A stretch of DNA of 47,117 nt, taken from an uncultured Eubacteriales bacterium. GTDB taxonomy: Bacteria > Acidobacteriota > Aminicenantia > Aminicenantales > Aminicenantaceae. The notes below the pieces were generated by a model. The model made no database searches. It was given only the letters and a program-made list of their open reading frames with translations, and was not told the origin of the DNA. The DNA lies in assembly GCA_964435925.1 (NCBI GenBank), contig CAYTBG010000005.1, positions 1 through 47,117 on the forward strand, written 5' to 3'. The stretch's first letter is position 1. Every line of letters starts with the position of its first letter. Below are positions 19,505 to 47,049 of this stretch, piece after piece. Both the position numbers and the translations under genes were made by a program.

Positions 19505-19573
19505 AGCATACTAAAATAAAACTCCGCATGGACTGACCTTGGATAACGATTGTATTAAGTCTGAGTGAAGATT
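19505..19573 (-). promoter_or_regulatory. Module-1-type phased direct-repeat box plus -10 (no obvious cognate gene)
   Basis: Plus-strand 11-bp units GGACTGACCTT|GGATAACGATT|GTATTAAGTCT|GAGTGAAGATT (19530-19573). The -10 TATGCT lies 19 nt downstream on the minus strand, the same spacing as at 24861-24929. Confidence 0.6.
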
Positions 19574-19575
19574 TA

Positions 19576-20265
19576 TTATCCCTTAAATTTATATCCTACA
19601 CCTCGCACACCAATGATGTACTTTGGATTAGATGGTTCGTCTTCAATTTTCTTTCTCAGATGAGCGATATGCTTATCCACCGTACGGGGTGTGACATAGA
19701 CATCATCACCCCAGACCTCATCAAGTATCAAGTCACGGTGCATTACCTGGTCTTTATGCTGAATGAGAAAGTGAAGCAGAGAAAATTCAAGTGCCGTTAG
19801 ATATATTGGCTTACCCTTTTTTTTCGCTTCATACTTAATAAAGTCAACATCGACATCGCCGAAGTGATATATATCGATTCCTTGCTGAAGTTGCTTCATC
19901 CTTCTAAGGAGGGCTTTAACACGGGCAAGAACTTCCCGGGGGCTAAATGGCTTTGTGACATAATCATCGGCACCCAGCTCCAATCCGAGAACTTTATCTA
20001 TCTCCTGGCTTTTGGCAGTTAATATCAGGATGGGCGTTGTAATTCCAGCTTGGCGTAATTGTTTACAGACTTCAAAGCCGTCCATTTTTGGCAGCATGAT
20101 ATCAAGGATGATGAGATCGTATCCTTTCTCTTTTGCCGCGGAAAGGCCTTGTAGCCCATCTTTTGCGCTGGAAACTTCATAACCCTCAAGTCTGAGGTTG
20201 TCCTCCAGAGCCATCAGGATACTTTCCTCATCCTCGATGACAAGAATTTTCTCCATTTCACTCAT
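19576..20265 (-). CDS. OmpR/PhoB-family response regulator RR1
   Basis: IEDE, IILDIMLP, GADDYVTKPF, winged helix RTVDKHIAHLRKK, VRGVGYKF. Confidence 0.97.
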   Translation of the reverse strand: MSEMEKILVIEDEESILMALEDNLRLEGYEVSSAKDGLQGLSAAKEKGYDLIILDIMLPKMDGFEVCKQLRQAGITTPILILTAKSQEIDKVLGLELGADDYVTKPFSPREVLARVKALLRRMKQLQQGIDIYHFGDVDVDFIKYEAKKKGKPIYLTALEFSLLHFLIQHKDQVMHRDLILDEVWGDDVYVTPRTVDKHIAHLRKKIEDEPSNPKYIIGVRGVGYKFKG

Positions 20266-20272
20266 CCTCTAT

Positions 20273-22399
20273 TCATTGAAGTGGAAGCTTTATCGAAAAT
20301 GTGCTGCCATGTCCCGGCTCGCTCTCAACATGAACGCTGCCGTGATGGGCTTCCGCAATTTGTTTGACTAAAGTCAATCCAAGCCCGCTGCCTTTTACCA
20401 TCCGTGTCAGCTCATCACCTCCACGATAGAAGCGTTCAAACACCTTGTCAATCTCTTCTTTCTTGATGCCAACACCAAAATCTTGGACAGCGATAACAAG
20501 ATATTGATCTTTTATAAATGATGAAACAACAACCTTTTTGGCTTCGCCAGAAAATTTGATGGCATTATCTACCAGATTATTAATCGCTTGGGTTAGAGCT
20601 GCGCTGTCAACCTCAATTAAGGGCAAAGACTTTTCAATTTTTGTCTGGATAACAGAACCCTCATGACGCACCCGATCTTGAATGGTCGAAACAATCTCTT
20701 GCAATAGTGCGCCGATATCAACGTTCTTAAACTCAAATTCTTTACGGCCTTCTTCCATTTGAGCAAAATTTAATATGTTTTCGGTGAGTAAAGAAAGTCT
20801 TTCACTTTGTTCTAAAAGAACATCATAGTACTTCTGGCGCCGCTCTTCAGAAGGTATCCTTCCTGCTTGAAGCATCTCTGCCAACTGCCTGATAGAAGTC
20901 AAAGGACTTTTGAACTCATGGGAGATAGTAGAGACAAAATCAGATTTCATTTTTGCAAGCTCCAGTTCATGGGAAACGGTGCGAATGGTCAAGATCGAAC
21001 CGAATATCAGAATACCCGCAATGAGAAGAAACATATAGAAATAAATGCCTCGTCGTGAAGTAAGAAAAGTCTCAAGAAGACGCTGCTCCTGTTGATGAAA
21101 CTCGAGCAACCAGTCCGGAAAGTTCCCTGCGAAATTTGTTTTGACAGTAACTGATCCTGAAGGCGAGTTTTCTGACTTCAGGATAACTTTACCATCCCTT
21201 CCTCTAACAATCCATTCAGTTTTCTCAGAGGAAACATTGCGCTGCAATGTTTGGTTGAGAACGTTATCTTTTAGATATTCAGCGTTGAGCAGAAGACCCC
21301 AAGTTTCATTATTTTCGGCTCCTTTCCCCGCATGTTGGCTCAACAATGAGACAAGATAAGAGTGCCTTCCGATCTCCAGTGTAAACCGTTTCGCATAGTC
21401 GCGAGGGGTATCCGAATCTCTAGAAATTTTTGCCTGCAAATCTGCTGCTGCACCTTCCTGGAAATCAAGTAATCTTTCTGTTATGTTTCTTTGTTTCTTT
21501 TCCTCGCCTTCTAATATCTGAAGAGTATTTTTGTAAGATTGGAGCTGTGAAGATAAGGATGGCCGGGAGAGAATTTCATCAATTGATTCTTTGGCGCGCT
21601 GTGTAAAAAAGTCATATTGAGCTTTTTCAAGCCTCCATTCTCTTTGAATCAGGCTTTTGTACGACTCAGTGAATGTTCTGGCGGAGCTTAAAGAATCATC
21701 GATTTCTAAAAATAATGAGCCCAGTTCCAGGCGAGCAACCAGTCCTAAGGGTATGCCGTCTGCAACTCGCACCTGGCTGAAGTCCTGAGCAATTGTCTCG
21801 TACGATTTTATGGCGTCCGGGAAGAATTTAGATTTTTTTTGGACTCTGGCAACCGCGCTTAGTAATTCTCCTTTCACCTGAGGGTCGGAAACCTCTCCCA
21901 TCGTTCTTTGATAGCTGATCAAAGCATCACGATATCTTTTCTTTTGAAATTCCAACTGCTGAGCAGCTTGAATCTTTCTCACCAAAGTGGGAGTTGGGGA
22001 AGAAGCAGAGAAGCGTTGCCTGCTCCCGTCCGGAAGAAAGAGAAACTTTGCTACGGGGAAGTAAATTTTTTTGAAGTCCTGGAAAAGAAAAACCTCCTCC
22101 ACTAGAGGATGCTGATTTTTTAGACTTTCCAGTGAATTGGAAAAAGCAGGCTTCGCGATTCCCTGGCTATTAGCAACTGTATTTAAGAAAGTCTGTTCAA
22201 CTTCGAAAATACTTTCATCAATAGATCTGGTGACCATTTCTGCAATTCTACGGTGTTCATCCAATCTCTTTTTTTCCAGCAAGGCCCGGTCATTCTGAAT
22301 ACCACGAAAAGCCAGATAACCCAGGAGCAGGCTCGGTAATCCGATACCCAGAAAGAAGAGGAGGAGTATCCTTTTGCGTTTATGTATTGACAGTCCCAT
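20273..22399 (-). CDS. Sensor histidine kinase HK1 with large TPR-containing extracytoplasmic domain
   Basis: TM1, about 420-aa loop with TPR-like helices (EFQKKRYRDALISYQ; AIKSYETIAQDF; GIPLGLVARLELG), TM2, ISHEFKSPL, NLVDNAIKF, GSGLGL. Confidence 0.95.
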   Translation of the reverse strand: MGLSIHKRKRILLLFFLGIGLPSLLLGYLAFRGIQNDRALLEKKRLDEHRRIAEMVTRSIDESIFEVEQTFLNTVANSQGIAKPAFSNSLESLKNQHPLVEEVFLFQDFKKIYFPVAKFLFLPDGSRQRFSASSPTPTLVRKIQAAQQLEFQKKRYRDALISYQRTMGEVSDPQVKGELLSAVARVQKKSKFFPDAIKSYETIAQDFSQVRVADGIPLGLVARLELGSLFLEIDDSLSSARTFTESYKSLIQREWRLEKAQYDFFTQRAKESIDEILSRPSLSSQLQSYKNTLQILEGEEKKQRNITERLLDFQEGAAADLQAKISRDSDTPRDYAKRFTLEIGRHSYLVSLLSQHAGKGAENNETWGLLLNAEYLKDNVLNQTLQRNVSSEKTEWIVRGRDGKVILKSENSPSGSVTVKTNFAGNFPDWLLEFHQQEQRLLETFLTSRRGIYFYMFLLIAGILIFGSILTIRTVSHELELAKMKSDFVSTISHEFKSPLTSIRQLAEMLQAGRIPSEERRQKYYDVLLEQSERLSLLTENILNFAQMEEGRKEFEFKNVDIGALLQEIVSTIQDRVRHEGSVIQTKIEKSLPLIEVDSAALTQAINNLVDNAIKFSGEAKKVVVSSFIKDQYLVIAVQDFGVGIKKEEIDKVFERFYRGGDELTRMVKGSGLGLTLVKQIAEAHHGSVHVESEPGHGSTFSIKLPLQ

Positions 22400-22662: not shown

Positions 22663-24822
22663 TTACTTTTTACTTTTGACCAGCGGCAGAAAATTCTCCA
22701 TCACCCAGAATTCTGGACTGTCACCCTGGTATCCTGAAAAAACAAACCTCTCCCCATCAGGTGACCAGTCAAGATGATACATGTTTATATCTACCAGATC
22801 TGTCTCAATGTCTTCGATACTCCCATCGTCTATTGAAATAACTCTAATATTCTTACCATAACTAGAGCTGGGTGCGTAATTAAAAGCGATCCTTTTGCTA
22901 TCCGGAGACCAGGCCAATTCGATGTTGACATGAACCATTTTTACTTTCGCTACCACACGCGAAACACCATCATTTAACGAGAGGATTTTCAGCGTCCCAC
23001 TATGCGAATTCTCTTCTTCGTCACTGGAAAAATAAGCAATCAGTTTCCCATCAGGTGACCATGCTATGGGACAGCACCAAACACTGTCGGAATCCGATGT
23101 CAAAACATTCGGATCTCCACCATTTAGCGGAACGGTGCAGATGTTCACCTCACCAAATCCCGTAGAATAAACCTTATCAGCTCTTGCGCGTACATAGGCG
23201 ATGGTCTTTCCATCCGGCGACCAACAAGGGAATCCGTTAAGAACGGATGCAGGCGTTTGGGTGAGCTGTTTTGGTTTTCCTCCAACAACGGGTAGTGTCC
23301 AGATTTGCCAGTGCCAACTCGTATCTTTTTTTGTCTGTCCCGACAAAACAATCGTCTTTCCATCCGGAGATACATCATTTCCTCCTCCATATGCCGGTTT
23401 GACGATTTTCTCATCAAACTGAATGGGAACAGTTTTAACTTTGCCTCCCTCAGCAGGAACAACAGCTAATGAAAGTTTTTCCCAATCACCACTCTTCTCA
23501 TCTATATTATTTGTGTGAAATATTCTTTTCCCATCGGGAGACCACCTGGGTTGTGCCGGATACCCTCCATGTGAGACCAACGCCGCCTTGCCACCAGTTG
23601 CCGGCAGCGTGTAAAGGCCAAATTCCGTATGACTGCGAAATACCGCTCCGATTTTATTATCAGGCGTCCATCCTGCTAAAAACATAATTCCCCCAGTTCC
23701 TTCAGGAATGTCAATCTTAACTAACTCCCCGGAGGCCACTCCATCCTCTCCAACAGGTATTATGCAAATTTGCTGGCTCTTCAGGTCCAGAAAAGCAATC
23801 GTGTCACCGTCAGGTGACCAGGTAGGACTTGACGCATTCCCGGCATTGGCAACCAGTTTTGGAGTCCCGTTAGACGCGGGTATCACCCATAAACCTCCAC
23901 CCGCTCTACCCAAATTTTTGGTGTCTACGTACGCGATCATCTTTCCATCAGGAGAAAAGACCGGTTCTCTGGCTTGGGCATCAACCAATTGCTTCGGCAA
24001 GCCCCCATCTACGGAGATTGTATGGATATGACACTCCTTATTGTCAACCGATGAAAAAGCCAGGATCTTTCCGTCCGGAGACAAACTCATTTTATAGTTT
24101 ACGATACGTGCATCCCGGTAATTTTCATATACTTTCCTTGGCTTTCCACCTTCGGCTGAAACAATATACATACCCTGTTTTCCCTCTTTTTCTTTCCGTT
24201 TATCACTTTTTGTCCAATCATTGAATACGATCCATTTACCATCACCAGACCAGGCAAGTCCGGACCAATCAACTTCCACATCGTCGGTATTCAGTATGCG
24301 AGGAGCCCCGGGAAATTCAGAGCCCAGTTTCCCCGATAGGGGCATCATCCAGAGCTTTTTGTCAGATGGAGAAGCGAAGATCACTTTTTTGCCATCCGGA
24401 GAGAACTGCATAACCCAAGAAAGCTTGGTTGGAACCTGAAGCTTTCGGAAAGTAGGTTTATGAGGCACTTTTTCTATTGTCTCAGTCAGCCTGGCAAGTC
24501 TTTCTTTTGCCAGAGCCACTACTTGCTTCTGCCCAGGATACTCGTCTATGAGGCGTTGGTAGGCTTTTTGTGCCTCTTGTTTTCCTAGTTTTTCGTAGCA
24601 CAGTCCGATATGATACAGCGCTTTGGAGGCAGTGGCCTCATTCCCTGAAAAATCATTCAGAATCCTTTCATAAATTGCAATAGCCTTCTCTAGCTCCCCT
24701 TCAACTTCCTCTTTGTATAAGCCGGATTGGTAGAGCTGTTCTGCGCTTTGCTGGACGTATGCTGGTGATACCAAAACTAATGCTAAAGCAAAAACACCAA
24801 GCATAATAAATCGTGATCTCAT
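22663..24822 (-). CDS. Secreted TPR + double PD40 (TolB-like) beta-propeller protein A
   Basis: Sec signal peptide, N-terminal TPRs (ALYHIGLCYEKLG), 12 [WFLV]SPDG-like blades, C-terminal FWVMENFLP. Confidence 0.9.
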   Translation of the reverse strand: MRSRFIMLGVFALALVLVSPAYVQQSAEQLYQSGLYKEEVEGELEKAIAIYERILNDFSGNEATASKALYHIGLCYEKLGKQEAQKAYQRLIDEYPGQKQVVALAKERLARLTETIEKVPHKPTFRKLQVPTKLSWVMQFSPDGKKVIFASPSDKKLWMMPLSGKLGSEFPGAPRILNTDDVEVDWSGLAWSGDGKWIVFNDWTKSDKRKEKEGKQGMYIVSAEGGKPRKVYENYRDARIVNYKMSLSPDGKILAFSSVDNKECHIHTISVDGGLPKQLVDAQAREPVFSPDGKMIAYVDTKNLGRAGGGLWVIPASNGTPKLVANAGNASSPTWSPDGDTIAFLDLKSQQICIIPVGEDGVASGELVKIDIPEGTGGIMFLAGWTPDNKIGAVFRSHTEFGLYTLPATGGKAALVSHGGYPAQPRWSPDGKRIFHTNNIDEKSGDWEKLSLAVVPAEGGKVKTVPIQFDEKIVKPAYGGGNDVSPDGKTIVLSGQTKKDTSWHWQIWTLPVVGGKPKQLTQTPASVLNGFPCWSPDGKTIAYVRARADKVYSTGFGEVNICTVPLNGGDPNVLTSDSDSVWCCPIAWSPDGKLIAYFSSDEEENSHSGTLKILSLNDGVSRVVAKVKMVHVNIELAWSPDSKRIAFNYAPSSSYGKNIRVISIDDGSIEDIETDLVDINMYHLDWSPDGERFVFSGYQGDSPEFWVMENFLPLVKSKK

Positions 24823-24860: not shown

Positions 24861-24929
24861 AAAATACCACAAGAAATATTCGAGTGAATGAAGCTTGTGT
24901 AACGATTGTGTGAAGATTCGGTGAAGATT
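24861..24929 (-). promoter_or_regulatory. Module-1 box (four 11-bp direct repeats) plus extended -10 for protein A
   Basis: Sense strand AATCTTCACCG|AATCTTCACAC|AATCGTTACAC|AAGCTTCATTC, then 19 nt, then TATTTT preceded by TGG. Confidence 0.7.
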
Positions 24930-29943: not shown

Positions 29944-30052
29944 AATTTAGTTCTTCCAGTTTTGGAATGTGTCATGATATTGTGTTGATAATGCAATTTT
30001 TATGTCAATTTTATTCCTGAAAATTGTCTGCTTTTTGTCATGAAAATGTCAT
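29944..30052 (-). promoter_or_regulatory. Module-2 box (eight phased 11-bp units) plus -10 for the C-B operon
   Basis: Sense ATGACATTTTC|ATGACAAAAAG|CAGACAATTTT|CAGGAATAAAA|TTGACATAAAA|ATTGCATTATC|AACACAATATC|ATGACACATTC (30052-29965); -10 TAAATT at 29949-29944. Confidence 0.7.
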
Positions 30053-30741
30053 CTCTCGAGGACCAGCTTGTAGCCAACACCGTGAACCGTAAGCAGGTGG
30101 CGTGGCTTGGAAGGATCTTCTTCAAGCTTGGAACGGAGCAAAGCGATATGATTGTCAACAGTACGGGTTGTAGGATACTGTTCATAGCCCCACACCTCAT
30201 CGAGGAGTTCGTCGCGAGTGACTACTTCGCCGACCCGAGCAGCCAATAAGCGAAGAATTCCGAATTCCTTGCGCGACATATTAAGAACTTTGTCCTCTCT
30301 GCGGGCTTCAAAGCTTTTGAAATCTATTAAAACTTTGCCAAAGCGTAGCTCGTTCGGAAGAGGCCCAATCTTAGACCGCTGCATCCGACGCAAAATGGCA
30401 CGGATGCGAGCCAGTAACTCTGGCACAGAAAAAGGCTTTGTAACATAATCATCGGCTCCTAGATCCAATCCGAGCACCCGATCCACTTCCTCACCCCGGG
30501 CAGTCAACATCAAGATTGGCGTGGTTAGTCCTTCTTCGCGCACTTTGCGGCAGAGCTCATACCCACTCATCTTGGGCAGCATTAAATCCAGGATAATCAG
30601 GTCGGGTTTTTTCTCTTGTATCAAACAGTAACCCTGCTCACCATCCGTAGCAGTCAAGACCTCGTACTTATCATACTCTAGGTTGTCCTTTAGTCCCCGC
30701 AGTATCGCCCGATCATCCTCGATGATGAGAATCCGTTTCAT
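30049..30741 (-). CDS. OmpR/PhoB-family response regulator RR2
   Basis: IEDD, IILDLMLP, GADDYVTKPF, RTVDNHIALLRSK. Confidence 0.97.
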   Translation of the reverse strand: MKRILIIEDDRAILRGLKDNLEYDKYEVLTATDGEQGYCLIQEKKPDLIILDLMLPKMSGYELCRKVREEGLTTPILMLTARGEEVDRVLGLDLGADDYVTKPFSVPELLARIRAILRRMQRSKIGPLPNELRFGKVLIDFKSFEARREDKVLNMSRKEFGILRLLAARVGEVVTRDELLDEVWGYEQYPTTRTVDNHIALLRSKLEEDPSKPRHLLTVHGVGYKLVLER

Positions 30742-35026: not shown

Positions 35027-35077
35027 GATATTACCTCCTGATATTTCGTCCTGCGGGTGAGTTTTTCATTCACAAAC

Positions 35078-35140: not shown

Positions 35141-35150
35141 TTCTCTTTTA

Positions 35151-37311: not shown

Positions 37312-37374
37312 AATGTAAGTCTTTGCTTTTCCCGAGTTGTCAAATAAAAGTAAAAGAATGTAAAAGATTGTCAA
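37312..37374 (-). promoter_or_regulatory. Module-3 box plus -10 for protein E
   Basis: TGTCA/AGTAA/TGTAA/TGTCA at 37338, 37349, 37359, 37369 (11-10-10); -10 TACATT at 37317-37312. Confidence 0.72.
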
Positions 37375-37515: not shown

Positions 37516-38202
37516 TTACCCAACAAATCGATATCCTTCTCCGTAAACTGAAAGGATATATTCGGGATGAGATGGATCCCCCTCAATCTTTTTCCTCAAT
37601 TTCAATATATGATTGTCGATGGTTCGGGTGGTAGGATATTTTTCATAACCCCAGATTTTATCCAGCAAAGCCTCTCTCGTTACCACTTCTTCCCTATGGG
37701 AAATGAAGTATTTTAAAATCTCTACTTCTAGTGATGTAAGATCCAATTCCTTATCTTTGCGCCTGACTTTGAAGTGTGTAAAATCAATCTCGACATCGCC
37801 AAAGCGATAAACTTCTGGGGCTTTTTTTCTCTCCCTCTTCTCGCGTCTTAAGTGTGCTTTTATCCGCGCTAAAAGTTCCCGGATGCTGAAAGGCTTGGTC
37901 ATATAATCGTCAGCTCCGATTTCCAATCCAAGCACTTTATCAATTTCTTCTCCCTTGGCTGTCAGCATGATAATAGGAATGCTTATATTTTTTTGACGGA
38001 GCTCTCGACAGATATCCAGGCCATTCATCTTGGGGAGCATAATATCAAGGATAATCAGTTGGGGTCTGTCTTCCAGGGCTTTGCGAAGTCCTTCCTCACC
38101 ATCCGCTGCCCAATCCACCTCATATCCCTCGTCTAACAGGTTGAGTTTCAACCCTTTTACCAGGTCTTCTTCGTCTTCTATTATTAATATTTTCTCTTTC
38201 AT
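37516..38202 (-). CDS. OmpR/PhoB-family response regulator RR3
   Basis: IEDE, IILDIMLP, GADDYMTKPF, RTIDNHILKLRKK. Confidence 0.97.
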   Translation of the reverse strand: MKEKILIIEDEEDLVKGLKLNLLDEGYEVDWAADGEEGLRKALEDRPQLIILDIMLPKMNGLDICRELRQKNISIPIIMLTAKGEEIDKVLGLEIGADDYMTKPFSIRELLARIKAHLRREKRERKKAPEVYRFGDVEIDFTHFKVRRKDKELDLTSLEVEILKYFISHREEVVTREALLDKIWGYEKYPTTRTIDNHILKLRKKIEGDPSHPEYILSVYGEGYRFVG

Positions 38203-40381: not shown

Positions 40382-40443
40382 ATTTTATCAAATCCAACTA
40401 TTAAAATGTCAAAAAAATGTAAAACTTTGTCAGCAAATGTAAA
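40382..40443 (-). promoter_or_regulatory. Module-3 box plus -10 upstream of HK3 (putative autoregulation)
   Basis: TGTCA/TGTAA/TGTCA/TGTAA at 40407, 40418, 40428, 40438 (11-10-10); -10 TAAAAT at 40387-40382. Confidence 0.72.
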
Positions 40444-40643: not shown

Positions 40644-42767
40644 TCACTGAATGCCTTTTTTTACTAAAGGCAGGAAGTTTTCCATCACCCAGACTTCATT
40701 TGCTTGAGTATAAGTGTCGAAAGCGATCTGATGTCCATCAGGATGAACATGCAGACCGCGCATTTTTTTATCTGTCTGCCAGAGCTTTTGAGGCTCTCCC
40801 CCATCTGAGGAGATTTGCCATAAGCTAGTGCCATAATCTTCGGCTTTGGTAAAGAGTACATGTTTCCCGTCTGAAGACCAATCAAAGGCTCTAATAACTG
40901 CCGCTTCTTTCAGTCTGAGTAATTCCCGGGCCTTTTCTCCAGAAACGGGCATAATCAATATGCTCTCGGCGTCTTTTTCAGGGTAGGCGATGCCAAAAAG
41001 CAGCTTTCGACCATCAGGCGAAAGAGCTAAAATGCTAAATAGATTGGGGTCACAATAGAGCTGCTGCTCCAGGCCCGAGTTGACTTCGCGCCTCAAGATG
41101 CAGCCTCGGTTTACATAAAAAATAGCTTTCCCGTCTTTTGACCATTCTCCCCTGTGCCAACCCCAGTCATCGATCCCCGGTGCATATGGTGCTATAAGGA
41201 TGACTTTTCCGTCACGAACATCGATTTTGTAGAGTCCTCCGACATAATCCTTTTTTTTGTCCTTTTTATAGAAGCTTGTGACCAGAATTGAGTGCCCATC
41301 AGGAGACCAGCGGGGATTATCAAAAAAATCAAGTTCACAAGGAACCTCTCGGTCTTTTCCAGTTTTAAGGGATCGAATATGAAGAATATACTTAAAAAAA
41401 ACGGGCCCTGCAGGCTTGAGTTGCTCAAGGATATAGGCTATGTACTCACCGTCGGGTGACCACTGAGGGGAAAAGTTGGAGCCTAAAAAGGGTTGTTTCA
41501 AAGGAGCCTTGACTTTTCCTATTGCCAGATCGATTGAAGCAATGTAGGAATTAGACCAGCTTCGAAACATGCTAAAAAAGAAGGAGCCATCCTGCTTAAA
41601 TCCCAAGGGGAAAACTTTCCCTATCTCGCTTTTAATCCATCGGGGTGATCCCTTAAGCCTGCCATTTTCGACCTGAATAAGCCAGAGGTCCAAGGCTCCT
41701 GTGCGGTCGCTAATGAATATAACTTCCTTTCCGCCTGGTGCCCAACCAAGCAATTTGTCATTTGCTGAATGCTCAATCAAAGGAGTCTCTCCGCTTCCAT
41801 CCGTGGCAAGCAGGTAGATGTCGTATTTTCCGGAGTCTTCCTTGACCGGAAGGTCAAAGGCGATATACCGGTCATCTGGTGAATGACACACACAATCTTG
41901 TGTTGTTTGCCCTATATCAGATATTTTGAGAACGCGAATGGAACCATCCTTGACAGAGACCCACGCAATCCGGAACTTTTTGTCTTTTCTGCCATACATC
42001 CTGACCGCAATGTGTTTGCCATCTGAAGACCATTGGGCCGGATAGACTTCATAATCTTTGTTACTGTAGAGAATACGAGGAGATGAGCCATCGATCCCGA
42101 TGAGCCTTAAATCATAATAAAAATTCTTATCAGACAGTTTATTATACCAGGAGTAGGCGATTTGCTTGCCGTCAGGAGAAATTTTGGAATAAAACGCAAA
42201 TTGCTGGGCAGCTTTTAAGGATGCTTCGTGGGTGAGGCGGCGCTTTTTCCCCGTAGCAAGCTCGTGAATAGCCAGATCTCCAGTTTCCCAATCCACATAA
42301 GAAAGATAACGGCCATCAGGAGAAGGACCTCCGAAAATATCCACATCAGGGCCTGACCAGACCTGGCGGATTTTGAACTCTCTATCACCTTTTTCAACCA
42401 GAGCCTGGGCCTTTAAAAGAATGGCAATTTTTTCTTCGGCCAACTTGATTTCTTCAGTTTGCTCAGGATAGCTCTCAGCCACTTTCTGGTAAGCCTTTAG
42501 TGCTTGCTTCATTCCCATTTTTTCGTAGCACATACCGATTTGAAGCTGAGCTTTTGCCCCCATTTTTCTGTTGTCAGGAAAGCTGGTTGTAATTTTGAGG
42601 AAAAGCTGGATAGCCCCCTCCAAGTCTCCTTCTGCTTCCTTCTTGAAGATCGCGCCTTCGTAAAGTTCCTCGGCTGACTCTTGGGGCAGAGCTTCTCGCA
42701 AACAGATGAGAGAAAACAGAATTGATATTGCTATGACGAGCCAGAGCGAAATTTTTTTATGGTTCAT
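40644..42767 (-). CDS. Secreted TPR + double PD40 beta-propeller protein F
   Basis: Signal peptide, TPR AQLQIGMCYEKMG, PD40 blades, VWVMENFLP. Confidence 0.9.
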   Translation of the reverse strand: MNHKKISLWLVIAISILFSLICLREALPQESAEELYEGAIFKKEAEGDLEGAIQLFLKITTSFPDNRKMGAKAQLQIGMCYEKMGMKQALKAYQKVAESYPEQTEEIKLAEEKIAILLKAQALVEKGDREFKIRQVWSGPDVDIFGGPSPDGRYLSYVDWETGDLAIHELATGKKRRLTHEASLKAAQQFAFYSKISPDGKQIAYSWYNKLSDKNFYYDLRLIGIDGSSPRILYSNKDYEVYPAQWSSDGKHIAVRMYGRKDKKFRIAWVSVKDGSIRVLKISDIGQTTQDCVCHSPDDRYIAFDLPVKEDSGKYDIYLLATDGSGETPLIEHSANDKLLGWAPGGKEVIFISDRTGALDLWLIQVENGRLKGSPRWIKSEIGKVFPLGFKQDGSFFFSMFRSWSNSYIASIDLAIGKVKAPLKQPFLGSNFSPQWSPDGEYIAYILEQLKPAGPVFFKYILHIRSLKTGKDREVPCELDFFDNPRWSPDGHSILVTSFYKKDKKKDYVGGLYKIDVRDGKVILIAPYAPGIDDWGWHRGEWSKDGKAIFYVNRGCILRREVNSGLEQQLYCDPNLFSILALSPDGRKLLFGIAYPEKDAESILIMPVSGEKARELLRLKEAAVIRAFDWSSDGKHVLFTKAEDYGTSLWQISSDGGEPQKLWQTDKKMRGLHVHPDGHQIAFDTYTQANEVWVMENFLPLVKKGIQ

Positions 42768-42807: not shown

Positions 42808-42873
42808 ATAATATCAAATTCTTCACCACTGCGGGTTAAGTTTGCGTTAAAATTCAGATGCGTTTCTATTAAG
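42808..42873 (-). promoter_or_regulatory. Module-4 box plus extended -10 for protein F
   Basis: Plus-strand GTTAAG/GTTAAA/(GATGCG)/ATTAAG at 42835, 42846, 42857, 42868 (11-bp phase); TGaTATTAT -10 at 42813-42808. Confidence 0.65.
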
Positions 42874-42879: not shown

Positions 42880-43560
42880 TTAGCCTCTAAATTTGTATCC
42901 AACTCCCCTGACACTAATGATGTATTCAGGGTTAGCAGGGTCGTTCTCAATTTTCTTTCTAAGATGGACGATATGGGGGTCAATGGTCCGAGACGAAACA
43001 ATAGCGTCCTCCCAAGCATCATCGAGCAGATTATCCCTGGTCACCACTTCTCTCTTATGCTCGATAAAATACTTGAGCAGCTTGAATTCTAAAGCGGTCA
43101 AGTGCAATATTTTCCCGGCCTTGTGAACCTCATGGCTTTTGAAATTTACAGTCACATCGCCGAATTTGTAGACCTCTCCGATGTCATCCTTCTGCCTTGT
43201 CCTTCTTAAGATGGCCTTTACTCTTGCCACTAATTCCCTTGAGCCCACAGGTTTGGTGACATAATCATCAGCACCTAATTCCAGTCCCAACACTTTGTCC
43301 ATCTCCTCGGTCCTCGCTGCCGTAAGCATAAGAATGGCTGTATCCTTGCCCGCTTCTTTGAGCTTCTTGCAGACTTCGAAACCACTCAGTCCTGGAAGCA
43401 GTATGTCAAGGATTATCAGTTGGAACTCCTGATCCAATGCCAGCTTTAAACCCTCCTTGCCGTCGAGGGTTGCAGAAACTTTGTATCCCTCAAACTCCAG
43501 ATCGTCTTTTAATCCCATCAGAATGGACTTATCATCTTCAACAATCAGTATCTTATCCAT
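42880..43560 (-). CDS. OmpR/PhoB-family response regulator RR4
   Basis: VEDD, IILDILLP, GADDYVTKP, RTIDPHIVHLRKK, VRGVGYKF. Confidence 0.97.
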   Translation of the reverse strand: MDKILIVEDDKSILMGLKDDLEFEGYKVSATLDGKEGLKLALDQEFQLIILDILLPGLSGFEVCKKLKEAGKDTAILMLTAARTEEMDKVLGLELGADDYVTKPVGSRELVARVKAILRRTRQKDDIGEVYKFGDVTVNFKSHEVHKAGKILHLTALEFKLLKYFIEHKREVVTRDNLLDDAWEDAIVSSRTIDPHIVHLRKKIENDPANPEYIISVRGVGYKFRG

Positions 43561-45706
43561 TTTTATCCTTCTTTCTTGCCTTTGTTTGTTTTACCGGAAG
43601 CACCATTGTAACTTTTGTCCCCTTTCCCGCATCGCTTTCCAACAATACCTCGCCTCCATGAGCTTTGATGATATGAGCCGTTAGGGTTAGACCTATTCCG
43701 CTTCCTTTGATGCTTATTTTGTGCGTTTCATCAGACCTGTAAAACTTTTCAAACACTTTTTTCTGCTCTTCCTTGCTTATTCCTATCCCCTCGTCCCCCA
43801 CTTCCAAAAACACACTCTGGGCGTTCGACCAGACCCGAAGAAATGCTCTCGGGCTTTGTCCTCTGAATTTCAAAGCATTATCGAGCACATTGAACAGAGC
43901 CCGGGAAATAGCTTCTTTATCGGCTAAGACTTTTGGCATCTGCTCGGGTATCTCTGTCTCCAGGAGGAATTTCTTCCCGGAAGTCTGTCTTTGAAATCGA
44001 GAAGCAACGTCCTTTGCCAGTTCAGCGATGCCTGTCTCTTCGAATTGGTATTCTTTCATTTCCGCTTCTATTTTAGAAAAATCGAGAATGTTTTCAACGA
44101 GTCGACTCAGGCGTTCGCTTTCATCGGTTATAGTTTCATAGTACAGTTGTTTCTTTGCTTCTTCCTTAACCCGTCTTCTCTTAAGAAGTTCGGCTAAATA
44201 TCGAATGGAAGTCAAAGGCGTTCTGAAATCATGGGAAACTGTGGACACAAATTCTGATTTCAATTTGGCTAACTCCAACTCTTTAGCCGTGCTCCTGATC
44301 GCCAAAAATCCTCCAAAGAACAGGGCAACTATCACAACGCCTACAGAAAAGAGGTAGATATTCCGTCTCTGCTTGAACTGTCTTTCAGCTAATCCTAGCT
44401 CGCTCTGAAAAACATTGACTTTCCAAGGTGGGAAATTCTCTTCAAAGCCTTGAGAAAAAGTTAACTGAGGAAGGGGCTTTTGAAGAGAAGTCATATCTTT
44501 CCCAGACACAGCGTTCCCGAATTCATCTTTTATCTGGACATGCCAATCCTTTTTAAGCGGAAGTCTTCCCAAAATCTCCGGAAGAAGCTTTTTGGACAGG
44601 ACTTCGGAATCTATTCTAATTCCCAGGACTGTATTATTTTTGATAGATGTACAGGAAACGAGATAGGCTTCGTTACCAATTGTCTCAGCGTGGTGATAGA
44701 AATTTCCGAAGGAAGAAATGGAGGAAGATGTTTTTGTCTTGATAAGAGGAATGACTTTTGTTACAAGATTCTCCCTTGCTTGCATCCTGCTTAGTTTTTC
44801 TTCTTCGAGCTGATTGAATTTCTGCCCTTTTTCCATGAAACTCTTCTTTACTCCAGACTCATCTATACTCTCCAAGGACGTATCAAGCATAGCTTTAACT
44901 TTCTTCCGGTAGAAATAAAATTGATTCTTGCTCAAAGGCCATCTGGATTCCAGGATGTTTTCGTGAAGCTCAAAAAAGGCTTCAACCGCCTTCATCTTTC
45001 TGTTTATATTCCAGTAGATGCTTCCTATCTGATACTGAGCTATCAGCCCAAGGGGTATTCCATCAGGACTTGGCACGGCTGTATGTTTTTTCAAAATCTT
45101 TTGATAGGCTTCAATAGCCTTAAAAGGATTCCCAGACTTTGCGAAACACCGTCCAATGCAATTCAAAAGTATGGCATGGGAAGCATCATCTGAAGTCTCA
45201 CCCATCAGTTTTTGGTAAGACTCTATTGCCAGAGAATAGTTTTTTGCCTTGAACTCAGACATCTCTGCTTTTTTCAGGAGAGGATGACGCTCTATCTCCA
45301 TAGTTTGTTTTTTCCTAATCCGTCCTTCATGGGGAAGAAGGAAAAGCGATTTTCCCAGCGGGAAAGACACATCTCCTCTTTTGTTAATCAGGAAAATCTC
45401 AGAGACTAGCTCTTCGCTTTCAGCTATTCTTTGGCAGACTTCTTTTAGCCCCTTTTCGTCGGATTGATTTTGAGGGATGCCGATCAGTTTGCTAATCCTT
45501 TCCTCAGCCTCTGATACGGATGCTTCGACTTCCTTAACGAGGAGTTCTGTTAATCTTTGCTGTTCTTCCTCGATATCCATTTTCCTGACCAGCTTTTCTC
45601 TTTCTGCTTCCCGAATAGCAAATATGGCCAGAACAATGCTCAAGAGGAATATGGCTACAGAGAATAGTATTATCGCCCTTTTTCGCCAAGTAAGCTTTAT
45701 TATCAC
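43553..45706 (-). CDS. Sensor histidine kinase HK4 with TPR-containing extracytoplasmic domain
   Basis: Two TMs, TPRs (KNYSLAIESYQKL; LNCIGRCFAKSGNPFKAIEAYQKI; GIPLGLIAQYQIG), VSHDFRTPL, NVLDNALKF, GSGIGL. Confidence 0.95.
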   Translation of the reverse strand: MIIKLTWRKRAIILFSVAIFLLSIVLAIFAIREAEREKLVRKMDIEEEQQRLTELLVKEVEASVSEAEERISKLIGIPQNQSDEKGLKEVCQRIAESEELVSEIFLINKRGDVSFPLGKSLFLLPHEGRIRKKQTMEIERHPLLKKAEMSEFKAKNYSLAIESYQKLMGETSDDASHAILLNCIGRCFAKSGNPFKAIEAYQKILKKHTAVPSPDGIPLGLIAQYQIGSIYWNINRKMKAVEAFFELHENILESRWPLSKNQFYFYRKKVKAMLDTSLESIDESGVKKSFMEKGQKFNQLEEEKLSRMQARENLVTKVIPLIKTKTSSSISSFGNFYHHAETIGNEAYLVSCTSIKNNTVLGIRIDSEVLSKKLLPEILGRLPLKKDWHVQIKDEFGNAVSGKDMTSLQKPLPQLTFSQGFEENFPPWKVNVFQSELGLAERQFKQRRNIYLFSVGVVIVALFFGGFLAIRSTAKELELAKLKSEFVSTVSHDFRTPLTSIRYLAELLKRRRVKEEAKKQLYYETITDESERLSRLVENILDFSKIEAEMKEYQFEETGIAELAKDVASRFQRQTSGKKFLLETEIPEQMPKVLADKEAISRALFNVLDNALKFRGQSPRAFLRVWSNAQSVFLEVGDEGIGISKEEQKKVFEKFYRSDETHKISIKGSGIGLTLTAHIIKAHGGEVLLESDAGKGTKVTMVLPVKQTKARKKDKNG

Positions 45707-46031
45707 CCGCCCTTAACTCCGTTCATCCTTTATTTAAAGGGGGCTGTATTCTTGAAAACCTGTGATTTTTCACCCTTTTCCTTATATCAGCTTATACCAG
45801 GTCAAAAATGGAGTCAAATGATTCAGGGCAGAAGCTTAGGCACAAGATAGGTCAGGTCTCTTAGACCGCTCCTGATCACATTTTGAAATGACTAGCGTTA
45901 TCACAGAGTTGCAAAGGGATTAAGCATTCTGTGAGAAATAGAGCCTATTCCCTTTTTTATATGAGAAGTGCTCTAAAGAATACGCACTGGCTTGTGGATT
46001 GAATAAAATTTTTATGTGTCAGCTTTTATTT

Positions 46032-46823
46032 TTAATCCCGAATCCAGGTAGTTACAAAACTAAACAAAGTTTTCGCCCTAAGTGGATTCTTGGATTCCCA
46101 ATTTTTCTTCCCTTTCTTTTTCTTGACTTTATAATTCTCTTCGAAATAAGTCTCATAGTCATTTATTGTAACAGTCCAAGTATCGGGATCATCCCTATAA
46201 ATCTCCATAATAACATCATCAGCACTCAAAATATTGTGATAATCTGAATCGTCATCTTCAAGAACATCGAATGTATTACGGACATCGATGTATACTTTTC
46301 CAGAGGAAGAAACCATCCTACCCGTATTGATTTTTTCAATATCATAATCTACTCTAATTATCAGGGTTACGCTGTAATACCCACAATTGGGATGGGGATA
46401 TTGCTCTAAGAAGCACTCCATACAATCAGGGGGAGTAATTCCGCAATTATCCTTGGGCGGAAAATGGCAACAAAGACCTTTATCAACATCCCAGTCAATA
46501 AACCATAAGTTTTGAAAGCCTATTTTTCCCAAAGTTACTTCTTCAGCACAAGTTTGGTCTGTTTGATTGTTTTTAATATCTAAACTGAGGTAATAGCCAG
46601 TTGTTGGTCCTCCCTTAAATTTCTTCGCACCCACATAGACATTTTCTGTGTTCTCGTAGACATCTTGATATCCAAATAAATTATATGATTCTCCCGGAAT
46701 CTTAAGTGACCATATCCATTTTTGGGGCTTTTTGGCTTCGAGAAAATTGATAGCCATAAAGACCAAAGCTATCGTTAAAATAATCACCAAACCAAATAAT
46801 TTTAACTTACCGAATTTTTTCAT
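46032..46823 (-). CDS. Hypothetical exported protein with a Cys cluster (about 263 aa)
   Basis: RBS AGGAGGA, N-terminal basic + hydrophobic signal, seven Cys within about 60 aa. No family recognised. Confidence 0.8.
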   Translation of the reverse strand: MKKFGKLKLFGLVIILTIALVFMAINFLEAKKPQKWIWSLKIPGESYNLFGYQDVYENTENVYVGAKKFKGGPTTGYYLSLDIKNNQTDQTCAEEVTLGKIGFQNLWFIDWDVDKGLCCHFPPKDNCGITPPDCMECFLEQYPHPNCGYYSVTLIIRVDYDIEKINTGRMVSSSGKVYIDVRNTFDVLEDDDSDYHNILSADDVIMEIYRDDPDTWTVTINDYETYFEENYKVKKKKGKKNWESKNPLRAKTLFSFVTTWIRD

Positions 46824-46983
46824 CAAATCCTCCTATTCTCAAATTCTTAATTTTTCCTGTTGACCTCACAATAATAATATTATCCCTGGGCACCACCTCC
46901 TATTTTAAGGAATATTTCTGCTTCATTCATTTAATTTGAATTTTCTTCCATCAAGCACTTATCCCCACATTGACATCACAAGT

Positions 46984-47049
46984 AATATAAAACTTTTTGA
47001 ATGGAGGTAGGTTAAGGTTGTGTTGTGATTTGGTTAAGATTTGATTGAA
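46984..47049 (-). promoter_or_regulatory. Module-4 box plus -10 for the Cys-rich exported protein
   Basis: GTTAAG/GTTGTG/GTTAAG/ATTGAA at 47011, 47022, 47033, 47044 (11-bp phase); -10 TATATT at 46989-46984, the same 22-bp offset as for F. Confidence 0.62.

What the first reader, a model, noticed from the sequence alone, without database searches (positions are those of the whole stretch)
19505..47049. Four distinct module-specific operator boxes, each about 22 bp from a -10 element
Seen at nine promoters (plus-strand half sites). Module 1: TGAAGATT/TAACGATT, 11-bp phase (24886-24929, 19530-19573). Module 2: TGTCAY-N5, 11-bp phase (29965-30052, 32768-32784). Module 3: TGTCA/TGTAA with identical 11-10-10 spacing (35104, 37338, 40407). 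Module 4: GTTAAG, 11-bp phase (42835, 47011). In every case a TAnnnT hexamer lies 21-23 bp from the proximal half site, so the box covers the -35 position. Known: OmpR/PhoB regulators bind 10-11-bp phased direct repeats at -35. Inference: each RR has a private regulon (RR1: A; RR2: C-B and itself; RR3: D, E and itself; RR4: F and the Cys-rich protein), making the paralogues transcriptionally insulated.
Basis: partly seen in the sequence, partly recalled or inferred. Interest (0 to 1): 0.85.

Follow-up and report, generated by a model that had tools for sequence, protein, structure and literature searches.

The report
Paralogue-specific response-regulator operator boxes
Four neighbouring sensor-regulator pairs each sit beside promoters carrying their own kind of phased DNA repeat, almost certainly that regulator's binding site: a tidy but conventionally built example of how duplicated signalling modules get separate target genes.

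Summary
All nine promoters carry 10-11-bp phased direct repeats on the coding (-) strand. The promoter-proximal core ends 19-22 nt upstream of a TAnnnT hexamer.

Position-weight matrices (PWMs) were trained only on regulator-downstream promoters from other genera. Scanned over the whole 2.84-Mb genome, they rank eight of the nine sites 1-5 among 5.65 million positions. The ninth, downstream of RR1, ranks 50.

Box type follows the adjacent OmpR-type response regulator (RR):
- It is conserved although four-fold degenerate sites are saturated.
- It recurs upstream of the cognate kinase gene in relatives.
- It recurs upstream of homologues of the Cys-rich gene.
- It matches type-specific recognition helices.

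"Four distinct boxes" is better read as two core families with two variants each. CTTCAC and CTTAAC differ by one base. The two TGACA/TTACA types differ in spacing. Strict insulation is therefore plausible but unproven.

The box downstream of RR1 is degenerate and has no gene behind it. No transcription start or binding data exist. The architecture matches PhoB, PmrA and SphR boxes, so this is a new member of a known kind.

The parts
24886..24929 (-). Type-1 box upstream of A: four 11-nt direct repeats with core CTTCAC/CGTTAC/CTTCAT
   Evidence: Rank 1 of 5.65 million positions with the type-1 matrix trained on other genera.
24861..24866 (-). Predicted -10 hexamer TATTTT of the A promoter, preceded by TGG (extended -10), 21 nt after the proximal core
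   Evidence: The same 21-nt gap is seen in type-1 promoters of relatives.
19530..19573 (-). Degenerate type-1 box directly after the RR1 stop codon; probable relic promoter
   Evidence: Rank 50 with the box-only matrix and rank 2 with the whole-promoter matrix. An SD sequence is kept but there is no start codon and no beta-propeller gene.
19505..19510 (-). TATGCT, -10-like hexamer 22 nt after the proximal unit of the RR1_dn box
   Evidence: The same hexamer lies at the intact orthologous promoter in L097.
29965..30052 (-). Type-2 box upstream of C-B: eight 11-nt units (ATGACA-type); the first unit overlaps the RR2 stop codon
   Evidence: Rank 1 with the type-2 matrix. Conserved in 10 orthologous promoters of other genera, plus the same-genus row L139, which was kept out of the training set.
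29944..29949 (-). Predicted -10 TAAATT of the C-B promoter, 20 nt after the proximal TGACA
   Evidence: The gap is invariant in the 10 of 12 aligned sequences that reach that far.
32763..32784 (-). Type-2 box upstream of HK2-RR2 (ATGACATTTTCGTGACA): autoregulatory site
   Evidence: Rank 2. A type-2 box lies upstream of the kinase gene in 5 of 5 type-2 relatives.
32741..32746 (-). Predicted -10 TAGAAT of the HK2 promoter
   Evidence: TAGAAT or TAAAAT lies at the same place in G023 and G009.
35104..35139 (-). Type-3 box upstream of D: TGACA-TTACA-TTAGT-TGACA, spacing 10-10-11
   Evidence: Rank 2.
35078..35083 (-). Predicted -10 TACATT of the D promoter, 20 nt after TGACA
37338..37373 (-). Type-3 box upstream of E: TGACA-TTACA-TTACT-TGACA, spacing 10-10-11
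   Evidence: Rank 1.
37312..37317 (-). Predicted -10 TACATT of the E promoter. The true start of E is the ATG at 37258, behind AGGAGG, and not the TTG at 37343
40407..40442 (-). Type-3 box upstream of HK3-RR3: TTACA-TGACA-TTACA-TGACA, spacing 10-10-11
   Evidence: Rank 5. 21 of 21 bases identical in G023.
40382..40387 (-). Predicted -10 TAAAAT (TGA before it) of the HK3 promoter, 19 nt after TTGACA
   Evidence: The same 19-nt gap is seen in G023 and G034.
42830..42873 (-). Type-4 box upstream of F: four 11-nt units ending in CTTAACC
   Evidence: Rank 1.
42808..42813 (-). Predicted extended -10 (TGA)TATTAT of the F promoter, 21 nt after CTTAAC
   Evidence: 16 of 17 type-4 promoters are reported at the same gap.
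47006..47049 (-). Type-4 box upstream of the Cys-rich gene (CTTAAC at 47038 and 47016)
   Evidence: Rank 2. A type-4 box lies upstream of 6 of 6 homologues examined in five other genera.
46984..46989 (-). Predicted -10 TATATT of the Cys-rich gene promoter; about 160-nt leader
19576..20265 (-). RR1, OmpR-type; recognition helix RTVDKHIAHLRKK
30049..30741 (-). RR2, OmpR-type; helix PTT-RTVDNHIALLRSK, wing VHGVGYKL
37516..38202 (-). RR3, OmpR-type; helix PTT-RTIDNHILKLRKK, wing VYGEGYRF
42880..43560 (-). RR4, OmpR-type; helix RTIDPHIVHLRKK
20273..22399 (-). HK1: two hydrophobic segments flank a domain of about 410 aa, followed by HisKA and HATPase_c. No box upstream
30738..32714 (-). HK2, sensor kinase of module 2
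38205..40337 (-). HK3, TPR-containing sensor kinase of module 3
43553..45706 (-). HK4, TPR-containing sensor kinase of module 4. No box directly upstream
22663..24822 (-). A: protein with an N-terminal hydrophobic segment, TPR_6 and PD40 beta-propeller repeats. Predicted target of RR1
25530..29911 (-). C-B: two overlapping TPR_6 + PD40 genes, a predicted operon under RR2
32894..37258 (-). E and D: TPR_6 + PD40 genes, each with its own type-3 promoter
40644..42767 (-). F: TPR_6 + PD40 gene, predicted target of RR4
46032..46826 (-). Cys-rich protein with an N-terminal hydrophobic segment and no known family. Predicted target of RR4

Best explanation
Each array is the binding site of the OmpR/PhoB-type response regulator (RR) encoded next to it.

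Inferred mechanism. Phosphorylated RR dimers bind head-to-tail to pairs of 10-11-bp phased half-sites. There are two dimers on a 4-unit array, one on the 2-unit HK2 site, and up to four on the 8-unit C_up array. The proximal half-site ends 19-22 nt upstream of a -10 hexamer, at about -39 to -33. It therefore stands where a correctly spaced -35 hexamer would be, and the bound regulator recruits sigma-70 RNA polymerase in the manner of a class II activator.

Predicted outputs are TPR + PD40 beta-propeller proteins with an N-terminal hydrophobic segment, so probably exported; for module 4 also a Cys-rich protein with such a segment; and, for modules 2 and 3, the kinase-regulator operon itself (positive autoregulation).

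Shown here: the sequences, their phasing, the fixed distance to the -10, their type-specific conservation, and their covariation with the recognition helix.

Inferred: binding itself, activation rather than repression, the transcription start sites, and how far the modules are insulated from one another.
For: 1. Independent matrices. Whole-promoter PWMs were built only from other genera. Training sets were T1 11, T2 10, T3 10 and T4 16 sequences. From the 17-row T1 alignment I dropped 4 rows without an array (L096, L104, L105, L107) and the own-genus rows. Each matrix puts the window's promoters first in the whole genome, far ahead of the next hit:
- T1: 55.0 and 10.4, next -7.5.
- T2: 118, next -57.
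- T3: 86.2 and 83.9, next -24.
- T4: 64.7 and -1.0, next -13.
Box-only matrices give ranks 1-5 for 8 of the 9 sites.

2. Conservation is not shared ancestry alone. Four-fold degenerate sites of the RR genes are only 22-45% identical between this genome and G009, G017, G023 and G034. Their promoter regions nevertheless find the window's boxes as best or near-best genome-wide blastn hits. Examples: G023 RR2-downstream to 30056-29990, E 1.5e-7; G017 RR1-downstream to 24929-24885, E 9e-5; G023 HK3-upstream 21 of 21 identical.

3. The box follows the regulator and not the target gene.
- In G003 the orthologue of A (76% identity) sits behind RR3 and carries a type-3 box. In this genome A carries a type-1 box.
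- Homologues of the Cys-rich gene carry a type-4 box in 6 of 6 cases examined, and no other type passes threshold.
- The cognate box lies upstream of the kinase gene in relatives: T1 7 of 11, T2 5 of 5, T3 6 of 9, T4 8 of 14. There were no hits across the two core families.

4. Recognition helices are diagnostic of type and close to invariant within it. T1 has RT[V/I]DKHI (RTVDKHI in 17 of 18, RTIDKHI in one). T4 has RTIDPHI[V/A] (RTIDPHIV in 15 of 16 readable, RTIDPHIA in one). T2 has PTT-RTVDNH[I/V]A/S (13 of 13, one row reading V). T3 has PTT-RTIDNHILKLRKK (13 of 13). The two helix super-types match the two core families.

5. The gap from core to -10 is fixed within a type, and 15 of 17 type-4 promoters have an extended -10 (TGn). 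The genome's own promoters peak at TTGACn-N17-TAWWWT (128 against about 30 background). The tool's 16-18-nt promoter scan calls none of the box-to--10 pairings proposed here. It does list other -35/-10-like pairings inside some arrays (32773-32746, 30008-29979, 30052-30023, 40443-40416), so these promoters are not shown to lack a usable -35.

6. Only 6 OmpR-type regulators are found in this assembly. The other two, on C134 and C56, also have their own phased arrays next to them.
Against: - There is no binding, expression or transcription-start evidence. No RNA run was listed.
- The training promoters are largely orthologous to C_up, E_up and F_up, so part of those scores reflects homology. The non-orthologous sites (A_up, D_up, Cys_up, HK2_up, HK3_up) carry the argument.
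- TGACA is also the core of the genome's own -35 consensus, TTGACA. A second genome-wide peak at N19 (64 against about 30) means that HK3_up (TTGACA-N19-TAAAAT) could work without an activator.
- The tool finds a canonical promoter at 32835-32808, upstream of the HK2 box.
- RR1_dn scores poorly (rank 50).
- 4 of 17 type-1 regulators (L096, L104, L105, L107) have no array downstream. In separate sets, 4 of 11 type-1 (L096, L097, L104, L107), 3 of 9 type-3 and 6 of 14 type-4 relatives lack a detectable box upstream of the kinase gene.
Confidence: 0.8

Rival explanations
1. The boxes are real regulator sites but they are not private. Regulators within a core family cross-bind: RR2, RR3 and the C56 regulator on TGACA/TTACA/TTAACA arrays, and RR1 and RR4 on CTTCAC/CTTAAC arrays. 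The modules would then form a partly shared network and not four insulated regulons.
For: - Types 1 and 4 differ at one base of the proximal core. Position 4 is C in 12 of 12 listed type-1 cores and A in 17 of 17 type-4 cores. Phase and gap to the -10 are the same.
- A_up ranks 8 with the type-4 matrix, F_up ranks 73 with the type-1 matrix, and HK3_up ranks 162 with the type-2 matrix.
- Three type-3 kinase promoters of relatives hit the T2p matrix.
- Within each super-type the helices share their N-terminal half.
Against: - Type-specific helix and wing residues are close to invariant across genera, and so are the discriminating base and the spacing. That fits selection for discrimination.
- Cognate scores exceed non-cognate scores by 40 to 100 bits.
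Confidence: 0.3
2. The TGACA-type arrays (types 2 and 3) are stacked -35-like hexamers or UP-like elements read directly by RNA polymerase. No response regulator is involved.
For: - TTGACA is the most strand-biased hexamer upstream of genes in this genome (57 against 20).
- The tool calls -35/-10-like pairs inside the arrays: 30008-29979, 32773-32746 and 40443-40416.
- There is a genome-wide N19 peak.
Against: - The conserved proximal core sits 20 nt from the conserved -10. The gap is invariant in the 10 of 12 type-2 and 10 of 12 type-3 aligned sequences where the script found it. The genome's optimum is 17 nt.
- Four to eight units in strict 10-11-bp phase are conserved.
- This reading does not account for types 1 and 4, nor for the link to regulator type.
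Confidence: 0.05
3. The arrays are inherited passengers of cassette duplication: promoter sequence copied along with each kinase-regulator-propeller cassette. Alternatively they are sites of one global regulator such as a PhoB-like protein.
For: - D_up and E_up are alike over the whole promoter and leader, as expected after a recent duplication.
- The type-4 core CTTAACC equals the Pho-box consensus CTTAACCT reported for Synechocystis SphR (passages of PMC1906773).
Against: - Four-fold sites are saturated while the boxes persist.
- The boxes occur at non-syntenic promoters.
- None of the 6 OmpR-type regulators reaches the PhoB cut-off.
- PhoU, PstA and the PstS family were not found. The assembly is only 88% complete, so this point is weak.
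Confidence: 0.05

Closest known systems
PhoB Pho boxes of E. coli and SphR Pho boxes of Synechocystis
   Same: Both are tandem direct repeats in 11-bp phase (an 8-bp box plus a 3-bp linker), upstream of a -10 TAN3T/A, in place of a -35. SphR needs at least three repeats with consensus CTTAACCT. This comes from passages of PMC1906773. The type-4 proximal unit reads CTTAACC, and types 2 and 3 contain TGACA, the complement of TGTCA.
   Different: - None of the four regulators reaches the curated PhoB cut-offs.
- The kinases have a domain of about 410 aa, TPR-containing in HK3 and HK4, between two hydrophobic segments.
- The predicted targets are beta-propeller proteins and not phosphate-uptake genes.
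- In types 2 and 3 the motif reads TGACA on the coding strand. From recall, this is the opposite orientation to CTGTCAT at pho promoters.
- The proximal core ends 19-22 nt from the -10, not 10 bp.
PmrA box (Salmonella, Klebsiella)
   Same: The half-sites are CTTAAG/nTTAAT separated by 5 bp and bound head-to-tail by an OmpR/PhoB-family winged helix. This comes from passages of PMC3973317. Type-4 arrays in relatives read CTTAAT-N5-CTTAAC (L148, L153).
   Different: Here there are four units, not two, at a fixed distance from the -10. The regulators are not PmrA orthologues: no PmrA model is among the 25 best NCBIfam hits shown for RR4, and none of the regulators scanned reaches any curated cut-off.
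B. subtilis PhoP boxes and WalR/YycF boxes (motifs recalled, not taken from any call)
   Same: As I recall them, PhoP binds four TT(A/T/C)ACA repeats with about 11-bp periodicity on the coding strand, and WalR binds TGTWAH-N5-TGTWAH. Types 2 and 3 and the C56 arrays (TTACA, TGACA, TTAACA) look like these. YycF is the best NCBIfam hit of RR1, RR2 and RR3, but below its cut-off.
   Different: Scores are below the equivalog cut-offs. The sensors and the predicted targets are different. The 10-10-11 spacing of type 3 is a peculiarity of this system.
Insulation of duplicated two-component systems, studied at the kinase-regulator interface
   Same: The question is the same: how duplicated signalling pathways become separate. 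I saw PMC9208753 only in a search listing and its abstract.
   Different: That work concerns phosphotransfer specificity. Here the diverged layer is the regulator-DNA interface, and the evidence is only comparative.

Membership tests
OmpR/PhoB-family response-regulator operator (tandem direct-repeat box) | The adjacent regulator has a receiver domain plus a winged-helix Trans_reg_C domain | tested here: met
   All four regulators match PF00072 and PF00486 above the gathering score.
OmpR/PhoB-family response-regulator operator (tandem direct-repeat box) | Half-sites are direct (head-to-tail) repeats spaced about one helical turn (10-11 bp) | tested here: met
   Phased units are listed. Pattern searches. 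The phasing is conserved in relatives.
OmpR/PhoB-family response-regulator operator (tandem direct-repeat box) | The box overlaps or replaces the -35 region of a sigma-70 promoter that has a -10 but no well-spaced -35 | tested here: inconclusive
   The sequence geometry fits. The core ends 19-22 nt before TAnnnT. The gap is invariant within a type. The genome's optimum spacer is 17 nt. The 16-18-nt scan does not call the proposed pairings, although it lists other -35/-10-like pairs inside some arrays. No transcription start has been mapped, so the -10 hexamers remain predictions.
OmpR/PhoB-family response-regulator operator (tandem direct-repeat box) | The phosphorylated cognate regulator binds the box specifically | not testable with these tools
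   Only indirect support exists: the box co-occurs with regulator type and covaries with the recognition helix.
Pho regulon (PhoB/SphR Pho box) | The regulator is a PhoB orthologue | tested here: not met
   TIGR02154 scores of 204-225 bits against a cut-off of 296.2. No regulator in the genome is over the cut-off.
Pho regulon (PhoB/SphR Pho box) | The boxes lie upstream of phosphate-acquisition genes (pst, phoA, phoU) | tested here: not met
   The predicted targets are TPR/PD40 proteins and a Cys-rich protein. PhoU, PstA and the PstS family were not found in the 88%-complete assembly.
PmrA box | YTTAAK-type half-sites separated by 5 bp and bound by a PmrA orthologue | tested here: inconclusive
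   The type-4 half-site form and spacing match. No PmrA model is among the 25 best NCBIfam hits shown for RR4, and none of the regulators scanned reaches any curated cut-off. This is resemblance of the motif only.

The most novel reading that the evidence does not exclude
This bacterial family holds a natural set of at least seven orthogonal OmpR-type regulator/operator pairs: types 1, 2, 2', 3, 4 and 4', plus the C134 and C56 types. They would have arisen by duplication of one cassette: a periplasm-sensing kinase, a regulator, and an exported TPR/beta-propeller protein.

Specificity would have been reset by minimal steps:
- One core base, CTTCAC against CTTAAC, paired with helix D-K-H against D-P-H.
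- Half-site spacing, 11-11 against 10-10-11, paired with helix A-L-L-R-S against L-K-L-R-K and a changed wing.

Effector genes move between modules and take on the local box, as the A orthologue does in G003. That would make this a readable record of how insulation at the DNA level evolves after duplication of a two-component system.
Probability: 0.4. Interest if true: 0.65.

Novelty: new member of a known kind. Interest (0 to 1): 0.5.

Why it matters
The result gives a concrete regulatory map for a gene cluster in an uncultured bacterium, and the map can be tested. It says which regulator should drive which probably exported beta-propeller gene, where transcription should start, and which bases should matter.

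Because the same cassette is repeated several times per genome and in many genomes of the family, the paired regulator helices and boxes form a natural series. That series could be used to study how duplicated OmpR-type regulators come to recognise different DNA. It could also supply orthogonal regulator/promoter pairs.

The mechanism itself is textbook: phased direct repeats over the -35 position, plus positive autoregulation. What the propeller proteins and the kinases' extracytoplasmic sensor domains (TPR-containing in HK3 and HK4) detect remains unknown.

Tried and rejected
- Bacteroidota-type promoters (TAnnTTTG at -7). I suspected these at first from TTTG-like words near the -10 hexamers. 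I rejected the idea: TAnnTTTG is not enriched in 434 upstream regions, while TTGACA, TAAAAT and an N17 spacer are.
- The search for related loci with RR1 in genome contigs returned only generic OmpR-family regulators at 52% identity or less.
- The ESM Atlas gave no usable hit for the Cys-rich protein. Pfam and NCBIfam gave none either.
- RNA evidence: no RNA holder was listed, so transcription starts could not be examined.
- Rfam: no family reached the gathering score in the window.
- Literature: three searches found no description of this kinase-regulator-TPR/PD40 cassette or of its boxes. This covers the held library only.
- Other genome hits of the matrices (C60:9829, C2:60010, C170:1519, C19:33049, C11:30232) were inspected. 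They lie in or at coding sequence and have no array, so I set them aside.
- Short ORFs in 19127-19575 had no Pfam match at E <= 1. My recalled likeness of the 44-aa ORF to a racemase or isomerase N-terminus is unsupported.
- No structure or complex prediction was run, because no protein-protein binding is claimed.
- The organism's taxonomy was not determined.

Full report
LAYOUT. Every gene of the region lies on the - strand. From high to low coordinates the order is:
- a Cys-rich gene (46826-46032)
- HK4, RR4, F
- HK3, RR3, E, D
- HK2, RR2, C, B
- A, HK1, RR1
- a DUF4382 gene

The four RRs are OmpR-type, with Response_reg plus Trans_reg_C domains. The four HKs carry HisKA and HATPase_c. HK3 and HK4 have TPR hits. 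A-F carry TPR_6 plus PD40 (TolB-like) beta-propeller repeats. A hydrophobicity scan shows two membrane-like segments in each kinase, at about residues 7-35 and 395-475. They flank a domain of about 410 aa. It also shows an N-terminal hydrophobic segment in A-F and in the Cys-rich protein. My reading is a periplasm-sensing kinase, a cytoplasmic regulator and exported outputs. The true start of E is the ATG at 37258, behind AGGAGG, and not the TTG at 37343.

OBSERVATION.
- Type 1, A_up (24929-24886): AATCTTCACCG AATCTTCACAC AATCGTTACAC AAGCTTCATTC. RR1_dn (19573-19530) is a weaker copy that starts 2 nt after the RR1 stop codon.
- Type 2, C_up: eight 11-nt units (30052-29965), beginning inside the RR2 stop codon. 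HK2_up: ATGACATTTTCGTGACA (32784-32768).
- Type 3: four half-sites (TGACA/TTACA) spaced 10-10-11 at D_up (35139-35104), E_up (37373-37338) and HK3_up (40442-40407).
- Type 4: four 11-nt units ending in CTTAACC at F_up (42873-42830) and Cys_up (47049-47006).

The gap from the last base of the proximal core to a TAnnnT hexamer is 21 (A), 22 (RR1_dn), 20 (C), 21 (HK2), 20 (D), 20 (E), 19 (HK3), 21 (F) and 21 (Cys). Window-level shuffles favour the patterns, but those patterns were written after seeing the data.

WHICH PROMOTER TYPE THE ORGANISM USES. In 434 upstream regions of the genome, TTGACA is the most strand-biased hexamer (57 against 20). TAnnnT peaks 20-40 nt before start codons. TAnnTTTG is not enriched. 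Genome-wide, TTGACn-N(x)-TAWWWT peaks sharply at x = 17 (128 against about 30), with a second peak at 19 (64). The 19-22-nt gaps mean that the box cores are not well-spaced -35 hexamers. The tool's 16-18-nt promoter scan does not call the box-to--10 pairings proposed here. It does list other -35/-10-like pairings inside some arrays, so these promoters are not shown to lack a usable -35.

COMPARATIVE TEST. Relatives of the same family carry many kinase-regulator-propeller cassettes. I collected RR orthologues from 96 family genomes and fetched 73 loci in addition to the larger clusters fetched earlier. Regions downstream of the RR align into conserved islands that are specific to the RR type:
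- T2: ATGACATTTTCATGACA ... TCATGACACA ... TAAATT
- T3: TGACAATCTTTTACATTCTTTTACTTTTGTTTGACAA ... TACATT
- T4: ... AATCTCAAC.CAA.CTTAACC ... TG.TAnnAT
- T1: ... CTTCAC ... AAGCTTCAT ... TATnnT

Four of the 17 type-1 regulators (L096, L104, L105, L107) have no array and no propeller gene downstream. Six regulators with 69-75% identity to RR3 are followed directly by an ORF with no room for a promoter (L123, L125-L129).

Four-fold degenerate sites of the RR genes are only 22-45% identical between this genome and G009, G017, G023 and G034. G003, of the same genus, is at 67%. Neutral sequence is therefore saturated and the islands are under constraint.

INDEPENDENT MATRICES. PWMs were built only from other genera; rows from this genome's own genus and the four array-less T1 rows were dropped. 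They were scanned over all 5.65 million positions of the genome. The whole-promoter matrices put the window's promoters first by wide margins. Box-only matrices gave these ranks:
- Type 1: A_up 1, RR1_dn 50.
- Type 2: C_up 1, HK2_up 2.
- Type 3: E_up 1, D_up 2, HK3_up 5.
- Type 4: F_up 1, Cys_up 2.

HK1_up and HK4_up have no box. Weak cross-scores appear only within a core family: A_up ranks 8 with the type-4 matrix, F_up 73 with type 1, HK3_up 162 with type 2. Other genome hits are far weaker and lie in or at coding sequence. blastn-short searches with relatives' promoters against the whole genome point the same way.

THE BOX FOLLOWS THE REGULATOR.
(a) In G003 the orthologue of A (76% identity) lies behind RR3 (93% identity) and carries a type-3 box. 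Here A carries a type-1 box.
(b) Homologues of the Cys-rich protein occur in 10 other genomes of the 96 searched. In five genera they lie next to a type-4 module. All 6 homologues examined have a type-4 box upstream (scores 11.9-30.0), and no other type passes threshold.
(c) The region upstream of the kinase gene in relatives carries the cognate box in 7 of 11 (T1), 5 of 5 (T2), 6 of 9 (T3) and 8 of 14 (T4) modules for which that region was available. The threshold was about 1e-5 per position. There were no hits across the two core families.
(d) Recognition helices are type-specific and nearly invariant: T1 RT[V/I]DKHI (18 of 18), T4 RTIDPHI[V/A]HLR (16 of 16 readable), T4' RT(I/L)DSHIVHLR, T2 PTT-RTVDNH[I/V](A/S).(L/I)R with wing VHGVGYKL, T3 PTT-RTIDNHILKLRKK with wing VYGEGYRF.

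The PTT-RT.DN helices go with TGACA/TTACA boxes. The P/S-RT.D(K/P/S)HI helices go with CTTnAC boxes.

This assembly holds only six OmpR-type regulators. The fifth (C134) and the sixth (C56, helix PTT-RTIDTFIHHLRQK) also have their own phased arrays. For C56 the array is TTAACA x3 plus TTGACA, 20 nt before TAAATT or TATATT, at two promoters.

WHAT NEEDS CORRECTING.
First, the four boxes are two core families with two variants each. The type-1 and type-4 proximal cores differ at one position: C in 12 of 12 listed type-1 cores and A in 17 of 17 type-4 cores. Phase and gap are the same. Types 2 and 3 share the core and differ in spacing (11 against 10-10-11) and flanks. Insulation is plausible, because the discriminating bases and residues are conserved, but it is not shown.

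Second, RR1_dn is degenerate in two of its four units. It keeps an SD-like GAAGGAG, but it has no start codon and no propeller gene. The same-genus genome G006 shares this state (L095), while G066 (L097) has the intact gene behind the same TATGCT hexamer. I read it as a relic promoter. A long-leader transcript towards the DUF4382 gene is not excluded.

Third, A_up resembles relatives' kinase-upstream type-1 sites more than their regulator-downstream sites in 6 of 7 genomes compared. The Cys-rich gene likewise sits between a type-4 promoter and HK4 in five genera. The simple scan found no terminator-like site between A and HK1. Modules 1 and 4 may thus also autoregulate by read-through. This is inference only.

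COMPARISON WITH KNOWN SYSTEMS. The architecture is that of OmpR/PhoB-family operators.
- E. coli Pho boxes are tandem 8-bp repeats with 3-bp linkers upstream of a -10. Synechocystis SphR uses at least three CTTAACCT repeats (passages of PMC1906773).
- PmrA boxes are CTTAAG/nTTAAT-N5 half-sites bound head-to-tail (passages of PMC3973317).
- Types 2 and 3 resemble B. subtilis PhoP and WalR boxes as I recall them; this comes from no call.
- None of the regulators reaches any curated equivalog cut-off.
- PhoU, PstA and the PstS family were not found in the 88%-complete assembly.

The boxes therefore work like Pho or PmrA boxes but do not belong to those regulons. Three searches of the held literature found no description of this cassette.

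VERDICT. The assignment of boxes to regulators is strongly supported by comparative evidence, and I give about 0.8 that these are the cognate binding sites. Strict privacy of the regulons remains open. The finding is a new member of a known kind and of moderate interest. Its value is as a ready-made natural series for studying how regulator-DNA specificity diverges.

Noticed in passing
window 24861-24823 (leader of A); L146-L165 and G017/G023 loci: Leaders of type-1, type-4 and type-4' propeller genes carry an anti-SD stretch that can pair with the SD region: TCCTCCT...AGGAGGA. Relatives show compensatory variants: CCCTAT..ATAGGGAGG and CCCTGT..ACAGGGAGG. Type-3 leaders have a hairpin just before the SD (GTTGGTGA..TCACCGAC against TTGGCAAA..TTTGCCGG). 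RNAalifold found a consensus stem for T1, T3 and T4' but none for T2. The T4 run was spoilt by my extraction of the leaders. This could be a second, translational layer of control or a 5' stabiliser.
   Followed up: partly
whole genome G000: Besides the N17 optimum, TTGACn-N19-TAWWWT shows a second genome-wide peak (64 against about 30 background). This suggests a class of promoters with a 19-nt spacer.
   Followed up: no
G000:C56:9850-18084: This is a sixth OmpR-type two-component system, with a 794-aa kinase and a regulator with helix PTT-RTIDTFIHHLRQK. Two downstream promoters each carry TTAACA x3 plus TTGACA in 11-bp phase, 20 nt before TAAATT or TATATT. They stand in front of genes unrelated to the propeller proteins.
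   Followed up: partly
G000:C134:934-6438: This is a fifth kinase-regulator-propeller cassette in the same genome. Its regulator is 60% identical to RR1 (helix RTVDSHIANIRKK). It has its own array upstream of the kinase gene: CTTCACAATAACTTGACAGATTCTTAACACTTCCTTAAC. That array is the best genome-wide hit of three kinase promoters from G023 and G009.
   Followed up: partly
window 46032-46826; G041:C20, G067:C178, G110:C97, G042:C19, G066:C376: The 264-aa Cys-rich protein has an N-terminal hydrophobic segment and no Pfam, NCBIfam or Atlas match. It is nevertheless a conserved small family: homologues occur in 10 other genomes of the 96 searched. Where examined, they lie next to a type-4 module, with a leader of roughly 160-290 nt.
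   Followed up: partly
window 37515-37390: An insert of about 140 bp lies between the RR3 stop codon and the type-3 box of E. It is bounded by the inverted repeat TTGGGGTCAGAC...GTCTGACCCCAA. In G003 and most relatives the box starts inside the RR3 stop codon. The insert may be a small mobile element or a terminator.
   Followed up: no
window 19127-19575: There are 449 nt without a credible gene between RR1 and the DUF4382 gene. The stretch shares homology with G006 (L095). It holds short ORFs of 36 and 44 aa with no Pfam match. The propeller gene expected here seems to have been lost in this genus.
   Followed up: partly
L123, L125-L129: Regulators 69-75% identical to RR3, with the same recognition helix, are followed within about 15 nt by an ORF starting M-K/N... 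and containing YYR.LFERG. There is no promoter gap. This is a variant cassette in which the output gene is co-transcribed with the regulator.
   Followed up: no
G000:C134 and G023:C6 intergenic regions: A REP-like palindrome (GTCATTGCGAGG...GCAATC) recurs in several intergenic regions of the cassettes.
   Followed up: no
window 32835-32808: A near-consensus promoter (TTGACA-16-AATAAT, 11 of 12 matches) lies upstream of the type-2 box of HK2. HK2-RR2 may therefore have a basal promoter as well as the regulator-dependent one.
   Followed up: no
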